A stretch of DNA of 64,000 bases. It comes from a virus (lineage: Duplodnaviria > Heunggongvirae > Uroviricota > Caudoviricetes). The stretch covers positions 20,476 to 84,475 of the IMG/VR virus record IMGVR_UViG_2684622670_000009. One strand, 5' to 3'. Positions 48,412 to 59,423 of the stretch are shown here, one piece after another. The notes below the pieces were generated by a model, which ran no database searches, was not told the origin of the DNA, and saw only the letters and a program-made list of their open reading frames with translations. A program made the position numbers and the translations under genes. Positions within the stretch are counted from its first letter, which is position 1; the number at the start of each line of letters is the position of its first letter.

Positions 48412-49461
48412 TTAAGACAAGGACGCCACTGGTTTTAACAAACCAGCATCAAGTAGCTTGCGAGTTAACCACTGCTGGCCTTTACCCGTTAATTGGGGCG
48501 TCAGCCGTATCTGGTAGCCATTTTCATCATCCAGCCCCACTTCTTTCACCGTGAAATACCCGGCGTTGATGTACTGTTGGCGCGGTACGTTTTTGCGCGC
48601 ACCAAAAGCCATGAGAATGCCGTTCTGGCGCAACCATGAGAAAAGGGCGTTTTGCTTAAGTCCAACGACCTTTGCAAAGTTCCCGATCAGGATTCCATTG
48701 GCCACTGATACCCGGTCGGCAAAATCGACTTTAGGGGCTGCGGCCACCAGCTGTTGTTCCAACTGCATTTTCTGTTCTGCTAACTCGGCAGCCAGGCGTA
48801 GGGCTTCTGGTAATGTCTGGGGGATCGATGGGGTAGGGGAGTTTGCCTGCTGTAATTCTTCCAGTTTGTCGATCAGCGAACGGCGGACCGCTTTCGATTC
48901 GCGAGCAGCAACGCGCAGGGCTTGTTTGTATGTCATTACTATAACTACCTGATCCGCTCCACCTTTTTTCTTATCCATAGGGGTTACGAAGATTTCGTAA
49001 CCCTCCCCATCAAGCTCATCCTTAACTCTGGCAATGAAATCATTGTTGCGAACTGGTTTTTCGCTACATAATTTCCGTGCCTCATTGACCATCTTTAACA
49101 GTGTCAGGCTGTCGATTGTGTCTCCGGTGTTGGGGATAATATTCACGGCTGGTGCTGGCGTAGCTGACGTAACAGGTGCTGGTTTTTCAACATTCAAATT
49201 ATTACCGGTCATTCTATGTGCCTCCTTTCTCATTTCTGCTGCCACTGTTGCGTAACGTAGACGTCCTTGTTCAATCAAATAATCCCTGATCTCGGCTATC
49301 AGTAGCCTGTTGATCACAGCCTTATCTGTTCGGGTATAAAAACGCCTGGTTATCATGAAATAGTTAGCAATTGCGCTGGGGATCTCCCGTGTCGGCATAC
49401 AGGCAGTATGCAGGGCGATCGCTTCGGCTATGTCATTACGGGTGACGAGAGGTTTTTTCAT
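48412..49461 (-). CDS. ant: Antirepressor Ant
   Basis: 349 aa; C-terminal Ant domain shared with KilA; preceded by icd-like ORF and an Op51-like operator. Confidence 0.8.
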   Translation of the reverse strand: MKKPLVTRNDIAEAIALHTACMPTREIPSAIANYFMITRRFYTRTDKAVINRLLIAEIRDYLIEQGRLRYATVAAEMRKEAHRMTGNNLNVEKPAPVTSATPAPAVNIIPNTGDTIDSLTLLKMVNEARKLCSEKPVRNNDFIARVKDELDGEGYEIFVTPMDKKKGGADQVVIVMTYKQALRVAARESKAVRRSLIDKLEELQQANSPTPSIPQTLPEALRLAAELAEQKMQLEQQLVAAAPKVDFADRVSVANGILIGNFAKVVGLKQNALFSWLRQNGILMAFGARKNVPRQQYINAGYFTVKEVGLDDENGYQIRLTPQLTGKGQQWLTRKLLDAGLLKPVASLS

Positions 49462-49679
49462 AAACCCCCCTGAACGTCGGCAGAGAAGGGAAGGCTCCAG
49501 TAACTAAGTGAATTGCGCGAGTTAGTTGAAAAACGGGCAGTAAAAATGCAGGGGCCATCAGGCAATTGAGAGCGTGCTTCGTCTTCTGTTGCTGCGATAA
49601 CGAAGTGATAGTGGTGTTTTTTACAGGAATAGAAACGCCAGATGAATTCTGGGCGTGCGCAAGGATTGGCATTAACCAT
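49458..49679 (-). CDS. icd: Icd-like protein (interference with cell division)
   Basis: 73 codons from ATG (MVNANPCARPEF...) ending 4 nt into ant; size and position match P1 icd from memory. Confidence 0.5.
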   Translation of the reverse strand: MVNANPCARPEFIWRFYSCKKHHYHFVIAATEDEARSQLPDGPCIFTARFSTNSRNSLSYWSLPFSADVQGGL

Positions 49680-49889
49680 AGTTACGGCCTCATTCGTAGG
49701 TTTAACAACCTGCGCCCCGCTGCTAAACGGGTGGCAGGACGTGACGGGGTTAGCAGACTGGCACGAATGAAACCAGCAGGCCGAAGCCTCCCCATCACGC
49801 CCCACCATAATTCGGGCGTAACGTGGTTTTACGGACACAAAAATACCGCAATATCGGATATCTGCGGTTGTCCGCATTCGTATTCAGGC

Positions 49890-49960
49890 TGCTAAACCCG
49901 GTCGCAGAATTTGCTACGACGGCGGAACTATAAGCCTGAACGATTAAAAGGTCAATATGA
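49890..49960 (-). ncRNA. c4: Candidate c4-like antisense RNA (stem-loop between P51-like promoter and icd); boundaries approximate
   Basis: Stem TCAGGCT...AGCCTGA enclosing about 45 nt; location as expected for the immI c4 RNA; not verified. Confidence 0.3.
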
Positions 49961-49986
49961 TGCGAAAAGATAGCATTCGCGACTTA

Positions 49987-50003
49987 AAAATACAAATTTA
50001 TTA
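49987..50003 (-). promoter_or_regulatory. C1 operator (16/17), Op51-like, at the immI promoter
   Basis: Reverse complement of aaatttattagagcatt. Confidence 0.55.
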
Positions 50004-50039
50004 GAGCATTAATTGTATGATAAATACACAAATGGATCT

Positions 50040-51440
50040 AATAACCTCTTTTTTTAAAGGCGAAAATATGTACCCTAAATGGGTTATCCGGTGCGCCTTA
50101 TATCCCCGTCCTTCAGGGCGGGGATATAAGGCGCGGTTTTCCACCTAACTGTTTTTGTTTAAAATAGTGGGATGAAACGACTACAAGCATTTAAATTCCA
50201 GTTAAGACCAGATGGTCAACAGGAGCGTCAAATGAGGCGCTTTGCCGGTGCTTGTCGTTTCGTTTTCAACCGTGCTCTGGCGCTTCAGAATGAGAATCAT
50301 GAGGCCGGTAAAAAATACATCCCTTACACGAAAATGGCTTCCTGGCTGGTTGAATGGAAAAATGCTACTGAAACGCAATGGCTTAAAGATTCGCCATCAC
50401 AGTCATTGCAGCAGTCACTGAAAGACCTTGAGCGGGCTTACAAAAACTTTTTCCAGAATCGGGCTGCTTTTCCCCGATTCAAAAAGCGGGGACAGAATGA
50501 TGCATTCCGCTACCCGCAGGGCGTTAAGCTCGATCAGGAAAACAGCCGTATTTTTCTGCCGAAACTTGGCTGGATGCGCTACCGGAATAGCCGTCAGGTC
50601 ACGGGTGTTGTGAAAAATGTCACTGTCAGCCAGTCCTGCGGTAAGTGGTACATCAGTATTCAGACAGAAAGAGAGGTATCCGCTCCTGTTCACCCTTCTG
50701 CATCAATGGTCGGACTGGATGCTGGTGTGGCTAAACTCGCCACGCTGTCAGATGGCACAGTCTTTGAACCTGTAAATAGTTTTCAGAAAAACCAGAAGAA
50801 GCTGGCGAGACTTCAGCGACAGTTAAGCCGCAAGGTCAAATTCAGCAACAACTGGCAGAAGCAGAAACGCAAAATACAGCGACTGCATTTTCGTATCGCA
50901 AATATCCGCAGAGACTACCTTCATAAAGTCACAACGATCATCAGCAAAAACCACGCAATGATTGTCATTGAGGATTTGAAGGTTAAAAACATGGCAAAGT
51001 CAGCAGCGGGTACGGTCAGCCAGCCGGGGCGCAATGTCTGGACAAAATCAGGTTTAAACCGTTCGATACTGGATCAGGGCTGGTATGAAATGCGCCGCCA
51101 GCTTGAGTATAAGCAGCTCTGGCATGGCGGTCAGGTACTGGCAGTGCCGCCAGCGTACACAAGCCAGCGTTGCGCGTGCTGTGGTCATACCGCGAAAGAA
51201 AATCGCCTGTCACAAAGTAAATTCAGATGCCAGGTATGTGGATATACAGCGAACGCCGATGTAAATGGCGCTCGTAACATTTTAGCGGCGGGGCACGCCG
51301 TTCTTGCCTGTGGAGGGATGGTGCAGTCAGGCCGCCCGTTGAAGCAGGAACCAACCGAAATGATTCAGGCGATAGCCTGAACGTAGCAGGAATCCACGCC
51401 CGTCAGGGTGCGGAGGATGTCAAAAGGCAGGTGAGGTTAT
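50040..51440 (+). mobile_element. IS200/IS605-family element carrying only tnpB (no tnpA)
   Basis: Perfect 16-bp inverted repeat GCGCCTTATATCCCCG/CGGGGATATAAGGCGC at 50093-50134 upstream of tnpB; boundaries approximate. Confidence 0.5.
50172..51380 (+). CDS. tnpB: TnpB (IS605 OrfB-type RuvC-like nuclease; InsQ-like)
   Basis: 402 aa; C-terminal zinc finger CACCGH...CQVCG; near-identity to E. coli IS609 InsQ from memory. Confidence 0.9.
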
Positions 51441-51441
51441 A

Positions 51442-51933
51442 ATGAGAAAACTATTACTACCGTTATTATTTATGGCTGGGACTGTTAATGCAGCATCAAG
51501 TGTAAAGGAGATTTGTACCGATTATACGAAATACCTTGGGCACGTTTACGGCTTTGCTGTCAGTCAAGACGAATCCATGCGCAAGAAGTTACTGTCAGAT
51601 ATGAAACGCCTTAAACTTTCTGAAGCGATGGTGCAGCAAGAACTGTATAAAGTCGCAACCAACGAAAATGCTAAATATCAATATTCTCGCCTATTAAACC
51701 CCGATGCAAACGAGATTAATCGAAACTCTTTCGATTATATGGTAAAGGCATGCGAAACCGCTCCTGATTTTGCTATTCCTAGCTGGGGCGTGCTGGTGGC
51801 GAGCAATGCCGTTAATAAAGAAGATATTGGAAGAAATGGCATTGACTCAATCAGAAATGCCCCTGGAATGCGCCATCAAAACGTTCAGGGTACGCTTGAA
51901 GAGCGGGCCAGGGGACCGGGTGTAGCTCCATAA
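51442..51933 (+). CDS. Secreted protein with signal peptide; C-terminal motif shared with Sit
   Basis: Signal MRKLLLPLLFMAGTVNAASS; C-terminal RNAPGMRHQNVQGTLEERARGPG parallels Sit segments RNAPGMRKSN and GMRREVVQGTLEERARGKG. Confidence 0.6.
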   Translation: MRKLLLPLLFMAGTVNAASSVKEICTDYTKYLGHVYGFAVSQDESMRKKLLSDMKRLKLSEAMVQQELYKVATNENAKYQYSRLLNPDANEINRNSFDYMVKACETAPDFAIPSWGVLVASNAVNKEDIGRNGIDSIRNAPGMRHQNVQGTLEERARGPGVAP

Positions 51934-52021
51934 TTTAATGAATAATATTAAATTCTCTGGGCATAGTGGATCTAACAATATGGATTATGCCTATAATATC
52001 TAAAATAAAAAGGATAAAAAT

Positions 52022-52528
52022 ATGAAATTATATAAGTCATTGTATATCTTTTTATTAATGTCCTCTTTTCTGCCATTATCAGCAATGGCAGGTTCTATCG
52101 TTTGGACGGTAGGAGGTGAGCAAGGGTGGAGAGAAATCTCTGCAACCAATGACGATGGTTACACAATTAACTTTTCTTGTGATGCTGGAGCAAGGGAAGG
52201 TTCCGAAGATCATATCGCTGGAAGAAATTTGTATGTAAGCGGAGGAAAAGAGAATGTCGATTTTTCTACACGCGACACAATCTCACGTAAAGCAGATGTA
52301 ATTACTTTAATTGTTGGTCAGGATAGTTTTAATATTGGCACGCAAAACACTGCTCCAAATCGTAGGGAATGGTATTCTTTTTGGAAGTCAGCGTCAGCCA
52401 CAAAAGAAAAAAACATGGATGTATATATCGGATCGCATCGAATTACATCATTCTCTCTTGATGGAATTTCAAGTATTTACAAGGAAGCTAAAAATGATGG
52501 ATGTTTAAAGCAAGATGACGGTGAATAA
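52022..52528 (+). CDS. Secreted protein with signal peptide (AT-rich island)
   Basis: 168 aa; signal MKLYKSLYIFLLMSSFLPLSAMAGS. Confidence 0.6.
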   Translation: MKLYKSLYIFLLMSSFLPLSAMAGSIVWTVGGEQGWREISATNDDGYTINFSCDAGAREGSEDHIAGRNLYVSGGKENVDFSTRDTISRKADVITLIVGQDSFNIGTQNTAPNRREWYSFWKSASATKEKNMDVYIGSHRITSFSLDGISSIYKEAKNDGCLKQDDGE

Positions 52529-53699
52529 AGTGAAGGATATTAAAAAACTTGCACTTGGCTCAGTAAGCGATCTCTATAATAGAGATTCAAATATTACTTG
52601 GCGTGATAACTTAAGTAAAATCAAAATGCCAGGATATACATCGGCAAGTGATTTATTAAAATCAGAATATGCTTCTAATAATTTGGTTAGACAGTTGGCA
52701 CAACTGCAAAAAAACGCAATCATTCCATCGTATAAAGAACATATGGCAATCTTGCACAGACAGTTAAGAATATCGCGCCATGCTCAAGAACAACTTGCAA
52801 AGTTGAGTACACAAGCCTTAATTAGTGATTCTATTCTAAAACAGTTTTCGCATAGACCGAATTTGGCAGAAATAGGCAACGAGTATCGTAAACATATTGA
52901 TATTTTACAGAAACAGGCTCTGGCTTTTTTCCCGCGTGATGCCAATAAATACATTCAAATGCTAAGGAAACAGGCAGAAATTGCTATGCCGTTACGAAAC
53001 CAGTTCGAGATGCTTAATAAGCAAGCTGGTTTAAATAACATGCAGGCGATGTTTAATGAATTAAGACAACATGTAAATTATAAGACAGATTTAAATAATG
53101 GAATAGCACTATTATTAAAACAATATACTCTGGCAAAAGGTTCTCCATTGCATCAAGTAATGGAGCAAGGTCTTTCATCTTTTGCACAGGCTTATGCTGA
53201 AGGTGCTACTGAAACATCACACACGAAAAGTAATGTTCAAAACAAAGGATTAAATAAATATAGCTCAAAGTTTGTTGATTCATTTAAAGAGCTTCCTTAT
53301 CCACTGCAATGGTTACTAATGGTTATATTTTCTCAGGTTGTGTTTGGTGCTTTTATTGATTACGGAAAAGAGAAAACCTTGCTGGGAATACACAAGGCAG
53401 AATCATATGTTATATCGCTGTTTGAGGATAAACCAATATCAAAACAACAAATAATTAAAGAAAACAAAGAAATTAGTTGGGATGATCTCAATGGTTTTCG
53501 TTTTATAACTGGTGAGAACGTAAGATTACACGTCAGTCCTTCTATAAATAGTGAGGTTATTGAATGCATTGGCAAAAATACTATAGTGGCTGTTTTAGAT
53601 AAAAAAGATCGCCAATGGCTTTTCGTGCAGGTTAAATCAGGGGACGAGTTTATTACTGGATGGATTACACGAACATACACAAAGCCTCTTAAGGCTTGA
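52515..53699 (+). CDS. Membrane protein with C-terminal SH3b-like domain (AT-rich island)
   Basis: 394 aa; TM segment LQWLLMVIFSQVVFGAFIDYG; C-terminal segment RFITGENVRLHV...WLFVQV...GWI resembles bacterial SH3 domains. Confidence 0.5.
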   Translation: MTVNKVKDIKKLALGSVSDLYNRDSNITWRDNLSKIKMPGYTSASDLLKSEYASNNLVRQLAQLQKNAIIPSYKEHMAILHRQLRISRHAQEQLAKLSTQALISDSILKQFSHRPNLAEIGNEYRKHIDILQKQALAFFPRDANKYIQMLRKQAEIAMPLRNQFEMLNKQAGLNNMQAMFNELRQHVNYKTDLNNGIALLLKQYTLAKGSPLHQVMEQGLSSFAQAYAEGATETSHTKSNVQNKGLNKYSSKFVDSFKELPYPLQWLLMVIFSQVVFGAFIDYGKEKTLLGIHKAESYVISLFEDKPISKQQIIKENKEISWDDLNGFRFITGENVRLHVSPSINSEVIECIGKNTIVAVLDKKDRQWLFVQVKSGDEFITGWITRTYTKPLKA

Positions 53700-53828
53700 A
53701 TTTTATCACCGTATCTTGGGGCTGGTTGTTGATGACGATGTGCTACTTGAAGTACTTGAGTTTTTTAACGCAGCATCTGAAATGTGCAGACTGACCGGTA
53801 ACAAATGACAACTCGTAGAATCGGTTAA

Positions 53829-54419
<591 letters not shown>

Positions 54420-56018: not shown

Positions 56019-59000
56019 ATGGAAAGAAAAAACGCCAACATTGACGATGTTATAAGGACAGTTGAAACCGCCAGCGCAAAAGAGCTGGAAGAGCTTGCAG
56101 GTATCCGGGAAGCTGTTGAAGATTTGAAAGGGGGGCGCGTTGCAACTGTTGATCCTGTCTCTCGCAGTGTGTCGGCATTAAATCGCACAATCGAAAATTC
56201 CCGGCCTGACTTTGTGGCCAAAGCGCCATCCGTAGACCCTATTGTTGACGCAATGAAACGGCTTAATTTAGGGGACGTTTCTCGTGTAGTTCAGGAAGAT
56301 GTTGCTCAACAGGAACAGCAGGCCAAATCAACCACACCAAAGGGTAAAAAACGACGCAGGAAGGCTATACCAGAGGATGTAAAGGCACAACGGACCGAAG
56401 CAGCCGAACACGCTCGCGAAATGTTCGGTCAAAAAGGCGGTGCGCAAAAAAGCCAAAACCAACGCGATGCGCGTGGTCGTTTTATTGGAAAGTCAGGGAG
56501 TAAGTCCGCAGCGGAAGATGCCCGTGCTGAACGTGCTGAAAAGGCCAGGCGCAAAGAGGATGATGAGCGTCTAAATGCTGAATCAGGTTTATTAAAAAAA
56601 CTGTCAAAAGTAGCTGAAGGCATAGGTAACCCTTCAGAGACTCGTGCCGTCGATGCGTTAGGTTATGCCGTTGCTGGTCCATTGTGGGCAGCAGGGAAGG
56701 AGCTTGGCGGGATATCAAAAGAAGTTGGTGGATCGCTTAATGGTGCCAGAAAGTCTATTGCCGATGTGATTCGTGGCAATGACGATAACAGCCGTAGAAA
56801 AGGTTTTTTTAGGCGTAAATCGCAAAATAGTGCCGATGTCGTTCAGGTTAACACCCAAAAACGGACGGTTCAGGAACTTCAGGAGCAGACCAGCGAAATT
56901 AAAGAGGGCAATGACAAGATTCTCAGCGCCCTTGATCAAATAGCCAAAAACACCGGGAAAAAGAAGGGCGGCTTGCTGTCCAAACTATTTAGCCTGTTAG
57001 GGAAGGGGGCCGGTGGCGTCGCGTCGTTGTTAATGGGGCGTGGCATGCTGAAAAAAGCTGGAGCACTCGCTTTTGGCGCTCTGGGGGCAAAGAAACTTGT
57101 AGGAATGCTACGCGGTGGTGGCAAGAAAACTCTCACCCATGAAGGCGGAGATTTGGCTGCCCGGGCAGCAGGTAAACTTGGATTAAAGGTAGTTGGTAAA
57201 GGGGCGTTACGCGCAATTCCCCTAGTCGGCACAGTGGCTGGAGGTATTTATGATGCGGTAACCGGTTGGAATGATACAGAAGCGCAACGTCGAGCGTTTG
57301 GGCTTAAATCAGGACAAGATCCATCATTCCAGCAAAAAGCCGCTTATACGTTAGCCAATGTTCTTGATTTGGGAGGACTGGTATCTGGTATTAGCAATGT
57401 CATTGGTAGCGTTCTCAAATCACTTGGATTTGAGGATATCGGCAATATGTTGCAATCATTTTCGACGGAAAGTATTGCACAGGCCATTGATAGTGGAATT
57501 ACCAATTTAGAAACATATATTTCTAACCTTGGTGATACTATATCCACGACATTTAGTGATTATACCGCAAAGATTGGTGATGCTATTTCAGGATGGTTCA
57601 GTGACACAACAAAGAACTTGAACGAAAAATTAGACGCCATCAAAAACTTCTTTACTGTCGATAACCTGAAACAGGTTTTTAGTGATGCAATTGATAGTGC
57701 AATTGATTTCATTAAGAACCCAAGGAAACACATTAAAGAGGCTGGCAGTAATCTATGGAGTGCCGCAAAAGAGCTTTCAGGTGAGATTGCAGATGCTGCT
57801 GTTCAGAGCACTCCTGTGGCCTGGGTTGCATCAAAGCTAGTCAATAAAGCGGATGCGAAAGAGGTTACACCTGAATTAAAAATACCTGCTAAAGAACGTC
57901 AGGAGGGCAATGCTCCTAAGACTGAATATATCCCTAAAAAGGCTAATATTGTCACTCGTGTTGTAAATGCATCCCTGGATACGGCGAAAGATAGCAATAA
58001 AACAGTTAAAGAAACTGCCAATCAGATAATCAATGCAAATGCTGTAGAAACGGGCAATAGCGCGTTGCAGAAAATTGATAAAGCTATTGGTCAAAATAGC
58101 TCGTCATCATCCTCGCTTAATACCACTGGCACCAGGAATGACATTCAGAAAGCTGCGGATACCTACAATAATGGCAACTTGGATGTAAAAGTCGGAAGTC
58201 TTGGAGCTGAAGGTAAGGCAAATCTCGATAAGTTGGCTCCGTATTTTGCTGAACTAGAGAATAAATATGGCCTTCCTGAAGGTACTCTTTACGCGATCGC
58301 TGCAACTGAATCTGGTGGTGATCCTAACGCAAAATCTACGCTTACAAGATCACCAAATGGAAAGCTAAGTGGTGGCGCTCTCGGAATGTTCCAGTTTACG
58401 AGCGTTGCTCGTGAGGAAACTGGATTATCCCGGGAAGATTCTTTTAATCCGGAAAAATCGGCAGAAGCTGCGGCTCTTCTCATGAGCAAGTATCTGAAGC
58501 AAGCCAATGGAGACTTAAACGAGGCCATCACTGCATATAACGCTGGGTTTGGCACTATCAATAAGTGGAAAAAAGGCACAGGTGACTTATCGAAAGAAAA
58601 CCGTGAGTACGCGATCAAGGTCAATACTCATCGTGCTCGCTATTTAGGTGGTGAAATCTATACACCTGGAGCAGGAGCACAGGGTGGGGCGCAATATGGA
58701 GTGAGGGGACCACTGCCTGATAACGCTGTTATCGATCAGTCTACTGGCCTAGCGTTTACCCCTGGTGATAGCCCGTTTGAGAAAGGCGGTCTGGTAGACA
58801 AAATCGGCAATGCTGTTGGCGTTAACGATCTGGTCAACAAATTCATGAATGGCCGGGGTATGCGTCGGGAAGTCGTTCAGGGAACGCTCGAAGAACGTGC
58901 ACGAGGGAAGGGGACCGCAACAGCAGCTGGCAATGTGTATGTTGATACTCCGATGCCAGTTGAAGAGGCGCGTCCGGTGGCCAGCAACTCAAGTTACTTT

Positions 59001-59423
59001 GACCAGCTCGGCGCACAAATGGGGATTGATGGGCTATTCGATAAACTCCGCAATGCGCCGGGGATGCGGAAAAGTAATGCGCCTGAACCAGCCACTACGT
59101 CCCAGGTGACGACTGCCGCCAACGATTTGCAGCAACCAACTGGTCGTATGCAGATAGATGGGCAGGTTATTAGTGACCTTGGCGGCTCCGGTGCCAAGCC
59201 GACAATGCAGTTGGCTGATAATACCGTTTCACTTGATGGTGAAACGAAGCGGCTGTTTGCGCAGATGACCTCATTGCTTGCCAGGATTGAAGAGCACACT
59301 AAAGACTCGGCGAAAGGCCAGGGAACTGTCGTAAAGGTCAGCACGCCTCAACCGGGCGTTATGCGCACGGTGCCACTGTCAATTGATGATCCGTTGATGA
59401 ATGACTACGCGAGAGTTGATTGA
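56019..59423 (+). CDS. sit: Tape-measure / injection transglycosylase Sit with lytic transglycosylase (SLT) domain
   Basis: 1134 aa; SLT motifs AIAATESGGDPNAKS ... GMFQF ... AYNAG; Gly/Lys-rich N-terminal half. Confidence 0.85.
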   Translation: MERKNANIDDVIRTVETASAKELEELAGIREAVEDLKGGRVATVDPVSRSVSALNRTIENSRPDFVAKAPSVDPIVDAMKRLNLGDVSRVVQEDVAQQEQQAKSTTPKGKKRRRKAIPEDVKAQRTEAAEHAREMFGQKGGAQKSQNQRDARGRFIGKSGSKSAAEDARAERAEKARRKEDDERLNAESGLLKKLSKVAEGIGNPSETRAVDALGYAVAGPLWAAGKELGGISKEVGGSLNGARKSIADVIRGNDDNSRRKGFFRRKSQNSADVVQVNTQKRTVQELQEQTSEIKEGNDKILSALDQIAKNTGKKKGGLLSKLFSLLGKGAGGVASLLMGRGMLKKAGALAFGALGAKKLVGMLRGGGKKTLTHEGGDLAARAAGKLGLKVVGKGALRAIPLVGTVAGGIYDAVTGWNDTEAQRRAFGLKSGQDPSFQQKAAYTLANVLDLGGLVSGISNVIGSVLKSLGFEDIGNMLQSFSTESIAQAIDSGITNLETYISNLGDTISTTFSDYTAKIGDAISGWFSDTTKNLNEKLDAIKNFFTVDNLKQVFSDAIDSAIDFIKNPRKHIKEAGSNLWSAAKELSGEIADAAVQSTPVAWVASKLVNKADAKEVTPELKIPAKERQEGNAPKTEYIPKKANIVTRVVNASLDTAKDSNKTVKETANQIINANAVETGNSALQKIDKAIGQNSSSSSSLNTTGTRNDIQKAADTYNNGNLDVKVGSLGAEGKANLDKLAPYFAELENKYGLPEGTLYAIAATESGGDPNAKSTLTRSPNGKLSGGALGMFQFTSVAREETGLSREDSFNPEKSAEAAALLMSKYLKQANGDLNEAITAYNAGFGTINKWKKGTGDLSKENREYAIKVNTHRARYLGGEIYTPGAGAQGGAQYGVRGPLPDNAVIDQSTGLAFTPGDSPFEKGGLVDKIGNAVGVNDLVNKFMNGRGMRREVVQGTLEERARGKGTATAAGNVYVDTPMPVEEARPVASNSSYFDQLGAQMGIDGLFDKLRNAPGMRKSNAPEPATTSQVTTAANDLQQPTGRMQIDGQVISDLGGSGAKPTMQLADNTVSLDGETKRLFAQMTSLLARIEEHTKDSAKGQGTVVKVSTPQPGVMRTVPLSIDDPLMNDYARVD

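What the first reader, a model, noticed from the sequence alone, without database searches (positions are those of the whole stretch)
51442..53699. AT-rich island of secreted/membrane proteins next to the TnpB element; one carries a motif duplicated in Sit
Three plus-strand genes in a visibly AT-rich block encode two signal-peptide proteins and a membrane protein with an SH3b-like domain. The first ends in RNAPGMRHQNVQGTLEERARGPG, which combines two separate Sit segments (RNAPGMRKSN around 59050 and GMRREVVQGTLEERARGKG around 58860). A periplasmic protein that mimics a motif of the injected tape-measure/transglycosylase would fit a superinfection-exclusion or decoy role, which is a hypothesis only.
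Basis: partly seen in the sequence, partly recalled or inferred. Interest (0 to 1): 0.6.

Follow-up and report, generated by a model that had tools for sequence, protein, structure and literature searches.

The report
Variant P1 superimmunity (sim) gene cassette
This low-GC block is an alternative version of phage P1's sim (superinfection-exclusion) locus, and its first secreted protein carries a conserved copy of a short segment of the phage's own injected tape-measure protein Sit, so a decoy mechanism can be tested but is not shown.

Summary
The window is a P1-like phage-plasmid. The three genes lie where P1 has simA-simB-simC, between the immI region (ant/icd/C4 RNA) and the late operon pmgC-tub-pmgB-sit. 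ORF1 (163 aa) is a long form of SimA; P1's 52-aa SimA is a truncated remnant of this family. ORF2 (168 aa) is a secreted YfjT-family protein. ORF1-like plus ORF2-like genes sit upstream of pmgC-sit in all eight distant Klebsiella/Salmonella P1-like elements examined. ORF3 (394 aa) has one membrane helix and a C-terminal SH3b-like domain, evolves fast and is an add-on. DNA specific to this cassette (51922-53776) has about 35% GC, the lowest in the window.

The ORF1 tail matches Sit 931-967 (E 6e-8) and keeps every residue that is invariant across distant Sit proteins. Most shared residues use different codons, so the match is old and selected, not a recent copy. Among 50,697 phage records the motif occurs only in P1-like Sit and SimA-long proteins.

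Superinfection exclusion is the best-supported function, from position and envelope targeting. No SimC homologue is present, the decoy mechanism is inference, and an IS200/IS605 tnpB element separates the operon from its predicted promoter. This is a new variant of a known kind.

The parts
51442..51933 (+). ORF1: long form of SimA (163 aa), a secreted protein. Signal peptide residues 1-17, helical globular domain about 19-125, flexible C-terminal tail.
   Evidence: The first 36 residues equal P1 SimA residues 10-45. phrog_3933 E 1.9e-113. 29 homologues, several named 'simA domain protein'. AF2 gives pLDDT above 90 for about 20-125 and about 56-61 for the tail. dN/dS 0.03-0.11.
51856..51921 (+). 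Sit-like linear motif NAPGMRHQNVQGTLEERARGPG in the ORF1 tail (residues 139-160).
   Evidence: BLASTP E 6e-8 to Sit 931-967. phrog_2533 (the Sit family) matched at profile positions 935-963, E 4.8e-5. Every Sit-invariant residue is retained. 68% nt against 73% aa identity.
51922..53776 (.). DNA specific to this cassette type (type C). It is the low-GC block, replaced by other DNA in P1 and in type-B relatives.
   Evidence: blastn breakpoints against L002/L011 and against P1. GC about 35%, the lowest of the window.
52022..52528 (+). ORF2: secreted YfjT-family protein (168 aa) with a signal peptide and two invariant Cys.
   Evidence: phrog_3429 E 4.6e-70. The 97%-identical P0030 carries a precomputed PF27224 (YfjT) hit. 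30% identity, E 2e-24, to the partner gene of phage Ro157c2YLVW. Family alignment. dN/dS 0.12-0.27.
52515..53699 (+). ORF3: single-pass membrane protein (394 aa, or 389 aa from GTG 52530). Variable Q-rich helical N-terminal region, membrane helix, conserved C-terminal SH3b-like domain.
   Evidence: phrog_7086 E 1.4e-184. 48 homologues and alignment A4. dN/dS 0.37-0.45. The AF2 model is poor, pLDDT 43.7.
53304..53363 (+). ORF3 membrane helix (about residues 264-283).
   Evidence: The only Kyte-Doolittle 19-residue windows at or above 1.6. Helix 262-303 in the AF2 model.
53517..53678 (+). ORF3 SH3b-like domain (residues 335-388).
   Evidence: Pfam SH3_3 at 25.5 bits against a 27-bit cut-off. Precomputed PF08239 on homologues. 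Most invariant columns of A4 lie here.
50088..51423 (+). IS200/IS605-family element carrying tnpB only (tnpB 50172-51380). It is inserted 9 nt into P1's annotated simA, upstream of the start used here. It is a neighbour, not part of the cassette.
   Evidence: A precise interruption of P1 homology between L001 3000 and 3001. TnpB Pfam domains. Same-site copies in two other plasmids.
56019..59423 (+). sit: tape-measure and injection transglycosylase (1134 aa). SLT domain at residues 742-861.
   Evidence: P1 annotation by synteny. Pfam SLT E 6e-26.
58848..58913 (+). Sit motif copy 1, NGRGMRREVVQGTLEERARGKG (residues 944-965). The aligned block extends over 58809-58919.
   Evidence: Invariant across six distant Sit proteins.
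59052..59081 (+). Sit motif copy 2 (partial), NAPGMRKSNA (residues 1012-1021). It lies in an insertion of about 50 aa found only in the E. coli P1 clade.

Best explanation
The block is an allelic cassette of the P1 sim (superimmunity) locus, one of the known low-GC, swap-prone accessory regions of P1-like phage-plasmids. It encodes three envelope-targeted, non-structural proteins that most likely act in the lysogen against incoming P1-like phage at the DNA-entry step.

Shown:
- The locus identity.
- ORF1 is a full-length-type SimA, and P1 SimA is its truncated remnant.
- The ORF1-like plus YfjT-like pair is conserved upstream of pmgC-tub-pmgB-sit across Escherichia, Salmonella and Klebsiella P1-like elements.
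- The flexible ORF1 tail carries a copy of the conserved Sit segment that lies about 80 residues after the SLT domain, and this copy is selectively maintained.
- All three genes are under purifying selection.

Inferred:
- The exported ORF1 presents the Sit-like peptide in the periplasm. There it competes with, or co-assembles with, the ejected Sit C-terminal region for an unknown envelope partner.
- ORF2 works together with ORF1.
- ORF3 is an independently mobile add-on. It is anchored in the inner membrane, with its SH3b domain probably facing the periplasm.
For: Position. Homology to P1 stops at 50087 and resumes at 51424-51581 and from 53800. P1 has simA/B/C between those points.

Literature.
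- simABC is one of eight variable, low-GC regions of P1-like phage-plasmids (PMC9603915).
- Sim is thought to prevent DNA injection by superinfecting phage (PMC8546580).
- The sim genes are non-essential by CRISPRi (PMC10695390).
- In near-identical D6-like prophages the divergent regions were the simB neighbourhood and sit (PMC6799933).

Envelope targeting. Two signal peptides, conserved Cys pairs and one membrane helix.

Conserved pair. All eight distant loci show the SimA-family gene followed by one or two YfjT-family genes and then pmgC...sit.

Motif.
- E 6e-8.
- Sit invariants N..GMR...VQGTL..RA...G are all present in ORF1.
- Most identical residues use different codons.
- ORF1 matches its own genome's Sit in 7 of 9 other loci.
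- The motif is absent from other phages.
- It lies in a low-pLDDT tail after a confident helical domain, as expected for an exposed linear motif.
- The Sit motif region is 96-100% conserved even where the adjacent SLT module is swapped and only 20-42% identical.

Selection. dN/dS is 0.03-0.11 for ORF1 and 0.12-0.27 for ORF2.

Precedent. T4 Imm excludes superinfection by binding the tape-measure protein (bioRxiv 10.64898/2026.03.06.709160).
Against: - The only experimentally defined Sim protein is SimC, which has no homologue here. P1 manages with a truncated SimA.
- PADLOC has no match for any of the three proteins.
- Klebsiella-type family members keep only NAPGMRQQ and lack the VQGTL..RA.G extension, so the full motif is not required for the family's function.
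- Co-variation of the motif between ORF1 and its own Sit is only suggestive. The two-residue state matches in 4 of 8 lineages, which is not significant.
- In this window the IS separates the operon from the predicted PsimA promoter. The promoter scan found nothing above chance.
- No partner of the motif is known.
Confidence: 0.5

Rival explanations
1. These are envelope accessory genes with a role other than phage exclusion, for example host envelope physiology, stress tolerance or colonisation. The shared segment reflects a property both proteins need in the periplasm, such as docking to a chaperone, protease or peptidoglycan, without any competition between them.
For: No defence-system model matches. 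YfjT-family proteins also occur outside P1-like elements, including as repeats in very large proteins. More distant ORF3 relatives sit at other accessory positions of phage-plasmids. The motif lies in a linker between domains in full-length family members.
Against: The strict positional link of the ORF1/YfjT pair to the sit operon in all eight distant loci. The motif occurs only in P1-like Sit and SimA-long. The same locus in P1 confers exclusion.
Confidence: 0.25
2. ORF1 serves the phage's own cycle rather than exclusion. It could be a periplasmic modulator or inhibitor of the Sit transglycosylase, or of lysis, protecting the lysogen or timing wall damage. This would be analogous to periplasmic lysozyme or T6SS-amidase immunity proteins.
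Confidence: 0.1
3. In this particular genome the cassette is silent or decaying. The IS insertion cut it off from its promoter, and ORF1 has lost the C-terminal module present in 215-aa relatives.
For: The IS lies between the predicted PsimA promoter and the ORF1 start. No promoter above chance was found downstream. ORF1 ends 3 residues after the motif, whereas type-B relatives continue for about 55 aa. Frameshifted variants exist in databases.
Against: All three ORFs are intact. The 163-aa form is the standard form of type-C cassettes (P0001 with 153 member sequences; L010 and L014-L017) and is under strong purifying selection. tnpB is on the same strand, so read-through is possible. A perfect TATAAT lies before ORF2 at 51992-51997 (read from the sequence).
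Confidence: 0.1
4. The motif similarity is a functionless relic of an illegitimate recombination or gene conversion between sit and simA, which lie about 7 kb apart on the same strand.
For: The two genes are neighbours in the same orientation. E. coli-clade Sit has an extra partial copy of the motif inside a clade-specific insertion, so the segment has been duplicated at least once.
Against: Nucleotide identity is only 61-68% across the motif, and most identical residues use different codons. The resemblance persists in lineages whose ORF1 proteins have diverged to 52-65% identity. The residues retained are exactly the Sit-invariant ones.
Confidence: 0.05

Closest known systems
Phage P1 sim locus (simA-simB-simC; SimC is the Sim superimmunity/exclusion protein)
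   Same: Identical genomic position between immI and LPsit/pmgC. The same 5' end (SimA signal peptide and the first residues of the mature protein). An operon of exported proteins. Low GC. Non-essential.
   Different: There is no SimB or SimC homologue. SimA is full-length-type here (163 aa against 52 aa). The partners are a YfjT-family protein and an SH3b membrane protein. Exclusion has been shown only for the P1 type.
Type-B sim cassette of phage vB_EcoM-Ro157c2YLVW and plasmid p1303_95 (215-aa SimA-long plus 158-aa YfjT-like protein)
   Same: ORF1 is 97-98% identical up to residue 160. Same motif and same gene order.
   Different: In type B, ORF1 continues with a helical tail of about 55 aa. 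ORF2 is only 30% identical. There is no ORF3. The DNA diverges exactly at 51921/51922.
T4 Imm (superinfection exclusion by binding the tape-measure protein)
   Same: A phage-encoded envelope protein that targets the tape-measure protein of incoming phage of its own kind at genome entry (bioRxiv 10.64898/2026.03.06.709160).
   Different: Imm is a multi-helix inner-membrane protein that binds the tape-measure protein directly. ORF1 is soluble and periplasmic, and it resembles a tape-measure segment rather than being known to bind one. There is no sequence relationship.
HK97 gp15 moron exclusion protein (own knowledge; the paper appears in the reference list seen)
   Same: A prophage-expressed single-pass membrane protein that blocks DNA entry, with a genetic link to the tape-measure protein.
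   Different: No homology was tested or found. gp15 is small and lacks an SH3b domain. It is comparable at most to ORF3 in topology.
E. coli K-12 YfjT (CP4-57 prophage; Pfam PF27224)
   Same: ORF2 belongs to this family: secreted, about 150-170 aa, two conserved Cys.
   Different: The family has no known function (one search found no functional study). The link with SimA-long and sit is specific to P1-like elements.

Membership tests
P1 sim (superimmunity) locus | Position between immI (c4-icd-ant) and the late promoter LPsit/pmgC | tested here: met
   blastn to P1: homology up to 50087, at 51424-51581 and from 53800. C4 RNA at 49727-49812.
P1 sim (superimmunity) locus | Homologue of SimC, the protein shown to cause exclusion | tested here: not met
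   tblastn of SimC and SimB against the window gave no hit at E<=0.05. Different PHROGs. hhalign of the ORF2 family against SimB and SimC aligns only the signal peptides.
P1 sim (superimmunity) locus | Homologue of SimA | tested here: met
   ORF1 residues 1-36 equal P1 SimA residues 10-45. DNA identity 93.7% over 51424-51581.
P1 sim (superimmunity) locus | Products exported by the Sec pathway | tested here: met
   Signal peptides with AXA-type cleavage sites in ORF1 and ORF2, and conserved Cys pairs. This rests on sequence inspection; no dedicated predictor was available.
P1 sim (superimmunity) locus | Blocks superinfecting P1 after adsorption | not testable with these tools
   Needs plating-efficiency, adsorption and DNA-entry assays.
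SimA-domain family (phrog_3933) | Full-length match to the family profile | tested here: met
   E 1.9e-113 over residues 1-162 of a 213-position profile. 29 homologues.
YfjT family (PF27224; phrog_3429) | Match to the family model | tested here: met
   phrog_3429 E 4.6e-70. Precomputed PF27224 on the 97%-identical P0030. The local Pfam copy gave no hit for ORF2, so the Pfam call rests on the precomputed hit.
Bacterial SH3 domain (PF08239, SH3_3) | Score above the Pfam gathering threshold | tested here: inconclusive
   25.5 bits against a cut-off of 27 for this sequence. Homologues carry precomputed PF08239 hits. The AF2 model shows six beta-strands at 328-384, but with low confidence.
PTP-like phytase (PF14566) | Catalytic CX5R motif and a score above threshold | tested here: not met
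   26.0 bits against a cut-off of 27, covering only profile positions 46-132. The two Cys (25, 104) are followed by TDYTKY and ETAPDF, so there is no CX5R.
Known anti-phage defence systems (PADLOC-DB v2) | Match to any model | tested here: not met
   No family at E<=0.01 for ORF1-3.
IS200/IS605 TnpB (the neighbouring element) | HTH_OrfB_IS605, OrfB_IS605 and Cas12f1-like TNB domains | tested here: met
   E 6.9e-16, 2.1e-33 and 2.2e-24. No ORF of 40 aa or more other than tnpB lies within the 1,336-bp element on that strand, so no tnpA is evident.

The most novel reading that the evidence does not exclude
SimA-long is a periplasmic molecular mimic of the tape-measure protein. A prophage exports a decoy bearing the invariant post-SLT peptide of Sit (D.F.N..GMR...VQGTL..RA.G.G). 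The decoy saturates, or poisons, the envelope partner or self-assembly step that the ejected Sit needs to open the route for DNA. The YfjT-family protein would be its obligate partner. This would be an exclusion mechanism based on mimicry of an injected virion protein. It would also imply that classical P1, which has only a truncated SimA, replaced this ancestral system with SimB/SimC.
Probability: 0.25. Interest if true: 0.75.

Novelty: new variant of a known kind. Interest (0 to 1): 0.5.

Why it matters
P1 is a classical model phage, and P1-like phage-plasmids are common in Enterobacteriaceae. Even so, how the sim locus excludes superinfecting phage is unknown, and SimA has been treated as a small accessory ORF.

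These results change that picture in three ways:
- SimA becomes a remnant of a conserved secreted protein that is paired with a YfjT-family protein across the whole P1-like group.
- The results point to a specific Sit peptide of about 22-40 residues that is more conserved than the lytic domain beside it.
- They give a simple, falsifiable experiment: express ORF1 with and without its tail, then challenge with phage.

If the mimicry idea is right, it would add a new type of entry-stage exclusion. It would also identify a functionally critical segment of a myovirus tape-measure protein and suggest a function for the uncharacterised YfjT family.

If it is wrong, the block is still a well-delimited example of cassette exchange at a known variable locus.

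Tried and rejected
- ORF3 structure. The AF2 model was too poor (pLDDT 43.7) for a fold search.
- Sequence searches of solved structures. ORF1, ORF2, ORF3, Sit and the ORF2 family profile found nothing usable.
- PTP-like phytase hit on ORF1. Rejected: below threshold, partial, no CX5R.
- NCBIfam and PADLOC gave no hits.
- Remote homology of ORF2 to SimB or SimC. Rejected; only the signal peptides align.
- Recent gene conversion between sit and ORF1. Rejected on codon divergence.
- Mimicry of other virion proteins by ORF1 tails in other lineages. tblastn of each ORF1 against its own 20-kb locus hit only Sit.
- Co-variation of the N-xx-GMR dipeptide between ORF1 and its own Sit. It matches in 4 of 8 lineages, which is not significant and is confounded by phylogeny.
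- Promoter and terminator scan. Nothing above the shuffled expectation.
- Literature. No paper in the held library discusses SimA function, a SimA-Sit resemblance or YfjT function. Lobocka et al. 2004 (PMC523184) was not held.
Full report
WHAT THE WINDOW IS. The 3' part of the window has the gene order of phage P1. It reads ant1 (48412-49461, minus strand), icd, C4 antisense RNA (49727-49812, minus strand; Rfam 71.9 bits), then the region in question, then pmgC (53853), tub, pmgB, sit (56019-59423), pmgA, bplA, gene 16 and R. Megablast of 51381-53852 against phage records matched P1 only at its two ends. The features under those matches are simA/simB/simC. blastn places P1 homology at 48425-50087, 51424-51581 and from 53800 onward. 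The finding therefore lies exactly at the P1 sim (superimmunity) locus, bounded on the right by the late promoter LPsit.

CHECK OF THE OBSERVATION. The three ORFs are as described. GC is 43.7% for ORF1, 22.7% for the spacer, 37.7% for ORF2 and 34.8% for ORF3, against 46.8% for the window. The 1.9-kb stretch 51926-53799 (35.4%) is lower than every other same-sized stretch of the window, about 4 sd below the mean. ORF1 and ORF2 begin with typical Sec signal peptides (…GTVNA|ASS and …LSAMA|GS) without a lipobox, and each family has two conserved cysteines. ORF3 has a single hydrophobic helix at about residues 263-283 and a C-terminal SH3_3 match just under the Pfam threshold. The motif is real. 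ORF1 122-162 aligns with Sit 931-967 at E 6e-8. ORF1 129-148 aligns with Sit 1001-1021 at E 0.002. tblastn of the three proteins against all six frames of the window finds nothing else. The PHROG profile of the Sit family also detects the ORF1 tail.

THREE ALLELIC CASSETTES. Comparison with annotated relatives shows three versions of the locus between the same flanks.
- Type A (P1): a 52-aa SimA, then SimB and SimC.
- Type B (phage vB_EcoM-Ro157c2YLVW, plasmid p1303_95): a 215-aa SimA-long plus a 158-aa secreted protein.
- Type C (this window, pLR-21-1_3 and about 35 PLSDB plasmids at about 91% identity): a 163-aa SimA-long, a 168-aa secreted protein only 30% identical to the type-B one, and the SH3b membrane protein.

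ORF1 residues 1-36 are identical to P1 SimA residues 10-45, so P1's SimA is a truncated remnant of this longer family. Types B and C share DNA up to 51921 and again from 53777. The swapped, low-GC DNA is thus 51922-53776, and the break falls three codons after the Sit-like motif. Of 267 PLSDB plasmids with a match to ORF1, 126 have a near full-length gene and the rest have only the first 48 codons, as in P1. A published survey lists simABC among eight variable, low-GC regions of P1-like phage-plasmids (PMC9603915). The AT-rich island is therefore an instance of a known variable region.

THE TNPB ELEMENT IS A SEPARATE EVENT. A 1,336-bp IS200/IS605-type element (50088-51423, tnpB only, hairpin at the left end) interrupts P1 homology between two adjacent P1 bases. 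The insertion point is 9 nt into P1's annotated simA and upstream of the ATG used here, which has a good AGGTGAGG ribosome-binding site. Other type-C carriers lack the element. Two plasmids with P1-type simB/simC carry it at the same site. It separates the operon from the predicted PsimA promoter, so expression in this genome is uncertain. The promoter scan was uninformative.

THE ORF1/ORF2 PAIR IS PROBABLY ANCESTRAL. ORF1 has 29 database homologues, all from Enterobacteriaceae and mostly on contigs of about 90 kb. For eight of the most divergent ones (52-80% identity; Klebsiella, Salmonella, K. aerogenes) I fetched the contigs. In every case the SimA-family gene is followed by one or two YfjT-family (PF27224) genes and then by pmgC-tub-pmgB-sit homologues. 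ORF2 belongs to that family. It is small, with 19 representatives in 1.8 billion proteins. No functional study of YfjT was found among the papers that mention it. ORF3 relatives in Citrobacter, Salmonella and Yersinia sit at other accessory positions of phage-plasmids, so ORF3 is a mobile add-on.

SELECTION. Against five other type-C plasmids, dN/dS is 0.03-0.11 for ORF1, 0.12-0.27 for ORF2 and 0.37-0.45 for ORF3. The controls give 0.09-0.19 (pmgC) and 0-0.15 (tub). All three are real, maintained genes. ORF3 evolves fast, mainly in its repeat-rich N-terminal part and its membrane segment, while the SH3b domain is nearly invariant.

ANATOMY OF ORF1 AND THE MOTIF. AlphaFold2 (18-sequence alignment) predicts a confident all-helical domain, with pLDDT above 90 for residues about 20-125. 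It is followed by a low-confidence tail (about 56-61) that holds the motif. The domain has no recognisable structural relatives. The universal element of the tail across the family is N(A/S)(P/R)GMR(H/Q)Q. Escherichia, several Salmonella and K. aerogenes members continue with xV(Q/E)G(T/S)L..RA.G.G, sometimes up to …MGNL. Klebsiella-type members go straight into a two-Cys C-terminal module.

In Sit, the corresponding segment lies about 80 residues after the SLT domain (742-861). It is nearly invariant across six Sit proteins that are 62-97% identical over the aligned C-terminal region, with N, GMR, VQGTL, RA and G all invariant. ORF1 keeps every one of those residues. At the DNA level the 22-codon core is 61-68% identical, and most identical residues use different codons. 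The resemblance is therefore old and maintained at the protein level. ORF1 matches the Sit of its own genome significantly in 7 of 9 other loci. A 49-aa motif peptide searched by tblastn against 50,697 phage records (E<=1) hit only P1-like Sit and SimA-long genes. Between the window and pLR-21-1_3 the Sit SLT module is only 20-42% identical, while the motif block is 100% identical.

MECHANISM. The following is established. A conserved, exported two-protein module sits next to the sit operon at the locus that confers exclusion in P1. One of its proteins displays, on a flexible tail, a selected copy of an invariant peptide of the injected tape-measure/transglycosylase.

The following is inferred. 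In the periplasm of a lysogen this tail meets the same partner as the ejected Sit C-terminal region, or meets Sit itself, and interferes with channel formation or DNA entry. This fits the description of Sim as blocking injection. It also fits the T4 precedent, where Imm binds the tape-measure protein, and a report that the simB neighbourhood and sit were the divergent regions between near-identical D6-like prophages.

Against this reading:
- No SimC homologue is present.
- No defence model matches.
- Klebsiella-type members lack most of the motif.
- Co-variation between ORF1 and its own Sit is not significant.
- No partner is known.

I put exclusion as the function at about 0.5 and the decoy step at about 0.25. 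The rivals are a different envelope function, modulation of the Sit muralytic activity, local silencing by the IS, and a recombination relic. They are listed with their evidence; the relic idea is disfavoured by the codon data.

COMPARISON AND NOVELTY. The block is a member of the sim locus by position and by its SimA homology. It is not a member of the SimC-based system. Its genes are already in databases as 'simA domain protein', 'hypothetical protein' and 'SH3 domain-containing protein'. I found no paper in the held library that notes any of the following: that P1 SimA is a truncated form, that SimA-long and YfjT form a conserved pair, or that SimA-long resembles Sit. I rate it a new variant of a known kind. 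It is of moderate interest, mainly because it makes the long-unexplained sim mechanism directly testable.

Noticed in passing
window 58060-58715 (Sit residues about 696-893): The Sit SLT module is an exchanged allele. It is only 20-42% identical to the Sit of the closest type-C plasmid (pLR-21-1_3), while the flanks are 88-100% identical. Both alleles still score as Pfam SLT.
   Followed up: partly
window 50088-51423; L012 and L013: The same tnpB-only IS200/IS605 element sits at the identical base position in a Salmonella Agona plasmid and an E. albertii plasmid that carry P1-type simB/simC. This points to an insertion hot spot, or to an old insertion followed by cassette exchange. Further copies lie near the head-processing/antiholin genes of E. 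albertii plasmids.
   Followed up: partly
window 51307-51350 (+): A weak RAGATH-18 RNA match (28.1 bits, E 0.03, below the gathering score) at the 3' end of tnpB. It may be the element's guide (omega) RNA scaffold.
   Followed up: no
window 49727-49933 (-): C4 antisense RNA (71.9 bits) and its a1/b1 target element (56.2 bits) are intact. A sub-threshold isrK match overlaps them at 49839-49920.
   Followed up: no
window 58974-59120 (Sit residues about 986-1034): E. coli-clade Sit proteins carry an insertion of about 50 aa that is absent from Klebsiella/Salmonella relatives. It contains a partial second copy of the motif, GIDGLFDKLRNAPGMRKSN. This copy resembles the ORF1 version (GIDSIRNAPGMRHQN) more than Sit copy 1 does.
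   Followed up: partly
window 51770-51925 (+1 frame of the ORF1 tail); P0007, P0008, P0016: Some database relatives of ORF1 are frameshifted just before the motif. They read the alternative frame (…ECAIKTFRVRLK…) and so lose the Sit-like segment. These may be natural pseudogenes or assembly errors.
   Followed up: no
window 51934-52021: The spacer between ORF1 and ORF2 has 22.7% GC and holds a perfect TATAAT at 51992-51997. ORF2 and ORF3 may therefore have their own promoter. The consensus scan did not call it.
   Followed up: no
L021 10747-11774; L020 10768-11650: Some Salmonella P1-like elements carry two tandem YfjT-family genes, or an extra 117-aa gene, between the SimA-family gene and pmgC. 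The locus therefore diversifies by duplication as well as by replacement.
   Followed up: no
P0090 (3281 aa) and P0100 (2205 aa): Segments similar to the ORF2 (YfjT) family occur as several matched stretches inside very large proteins from other organisms. The fold may also serve as a repeat module in giant surface proteins.
   Followed up: no
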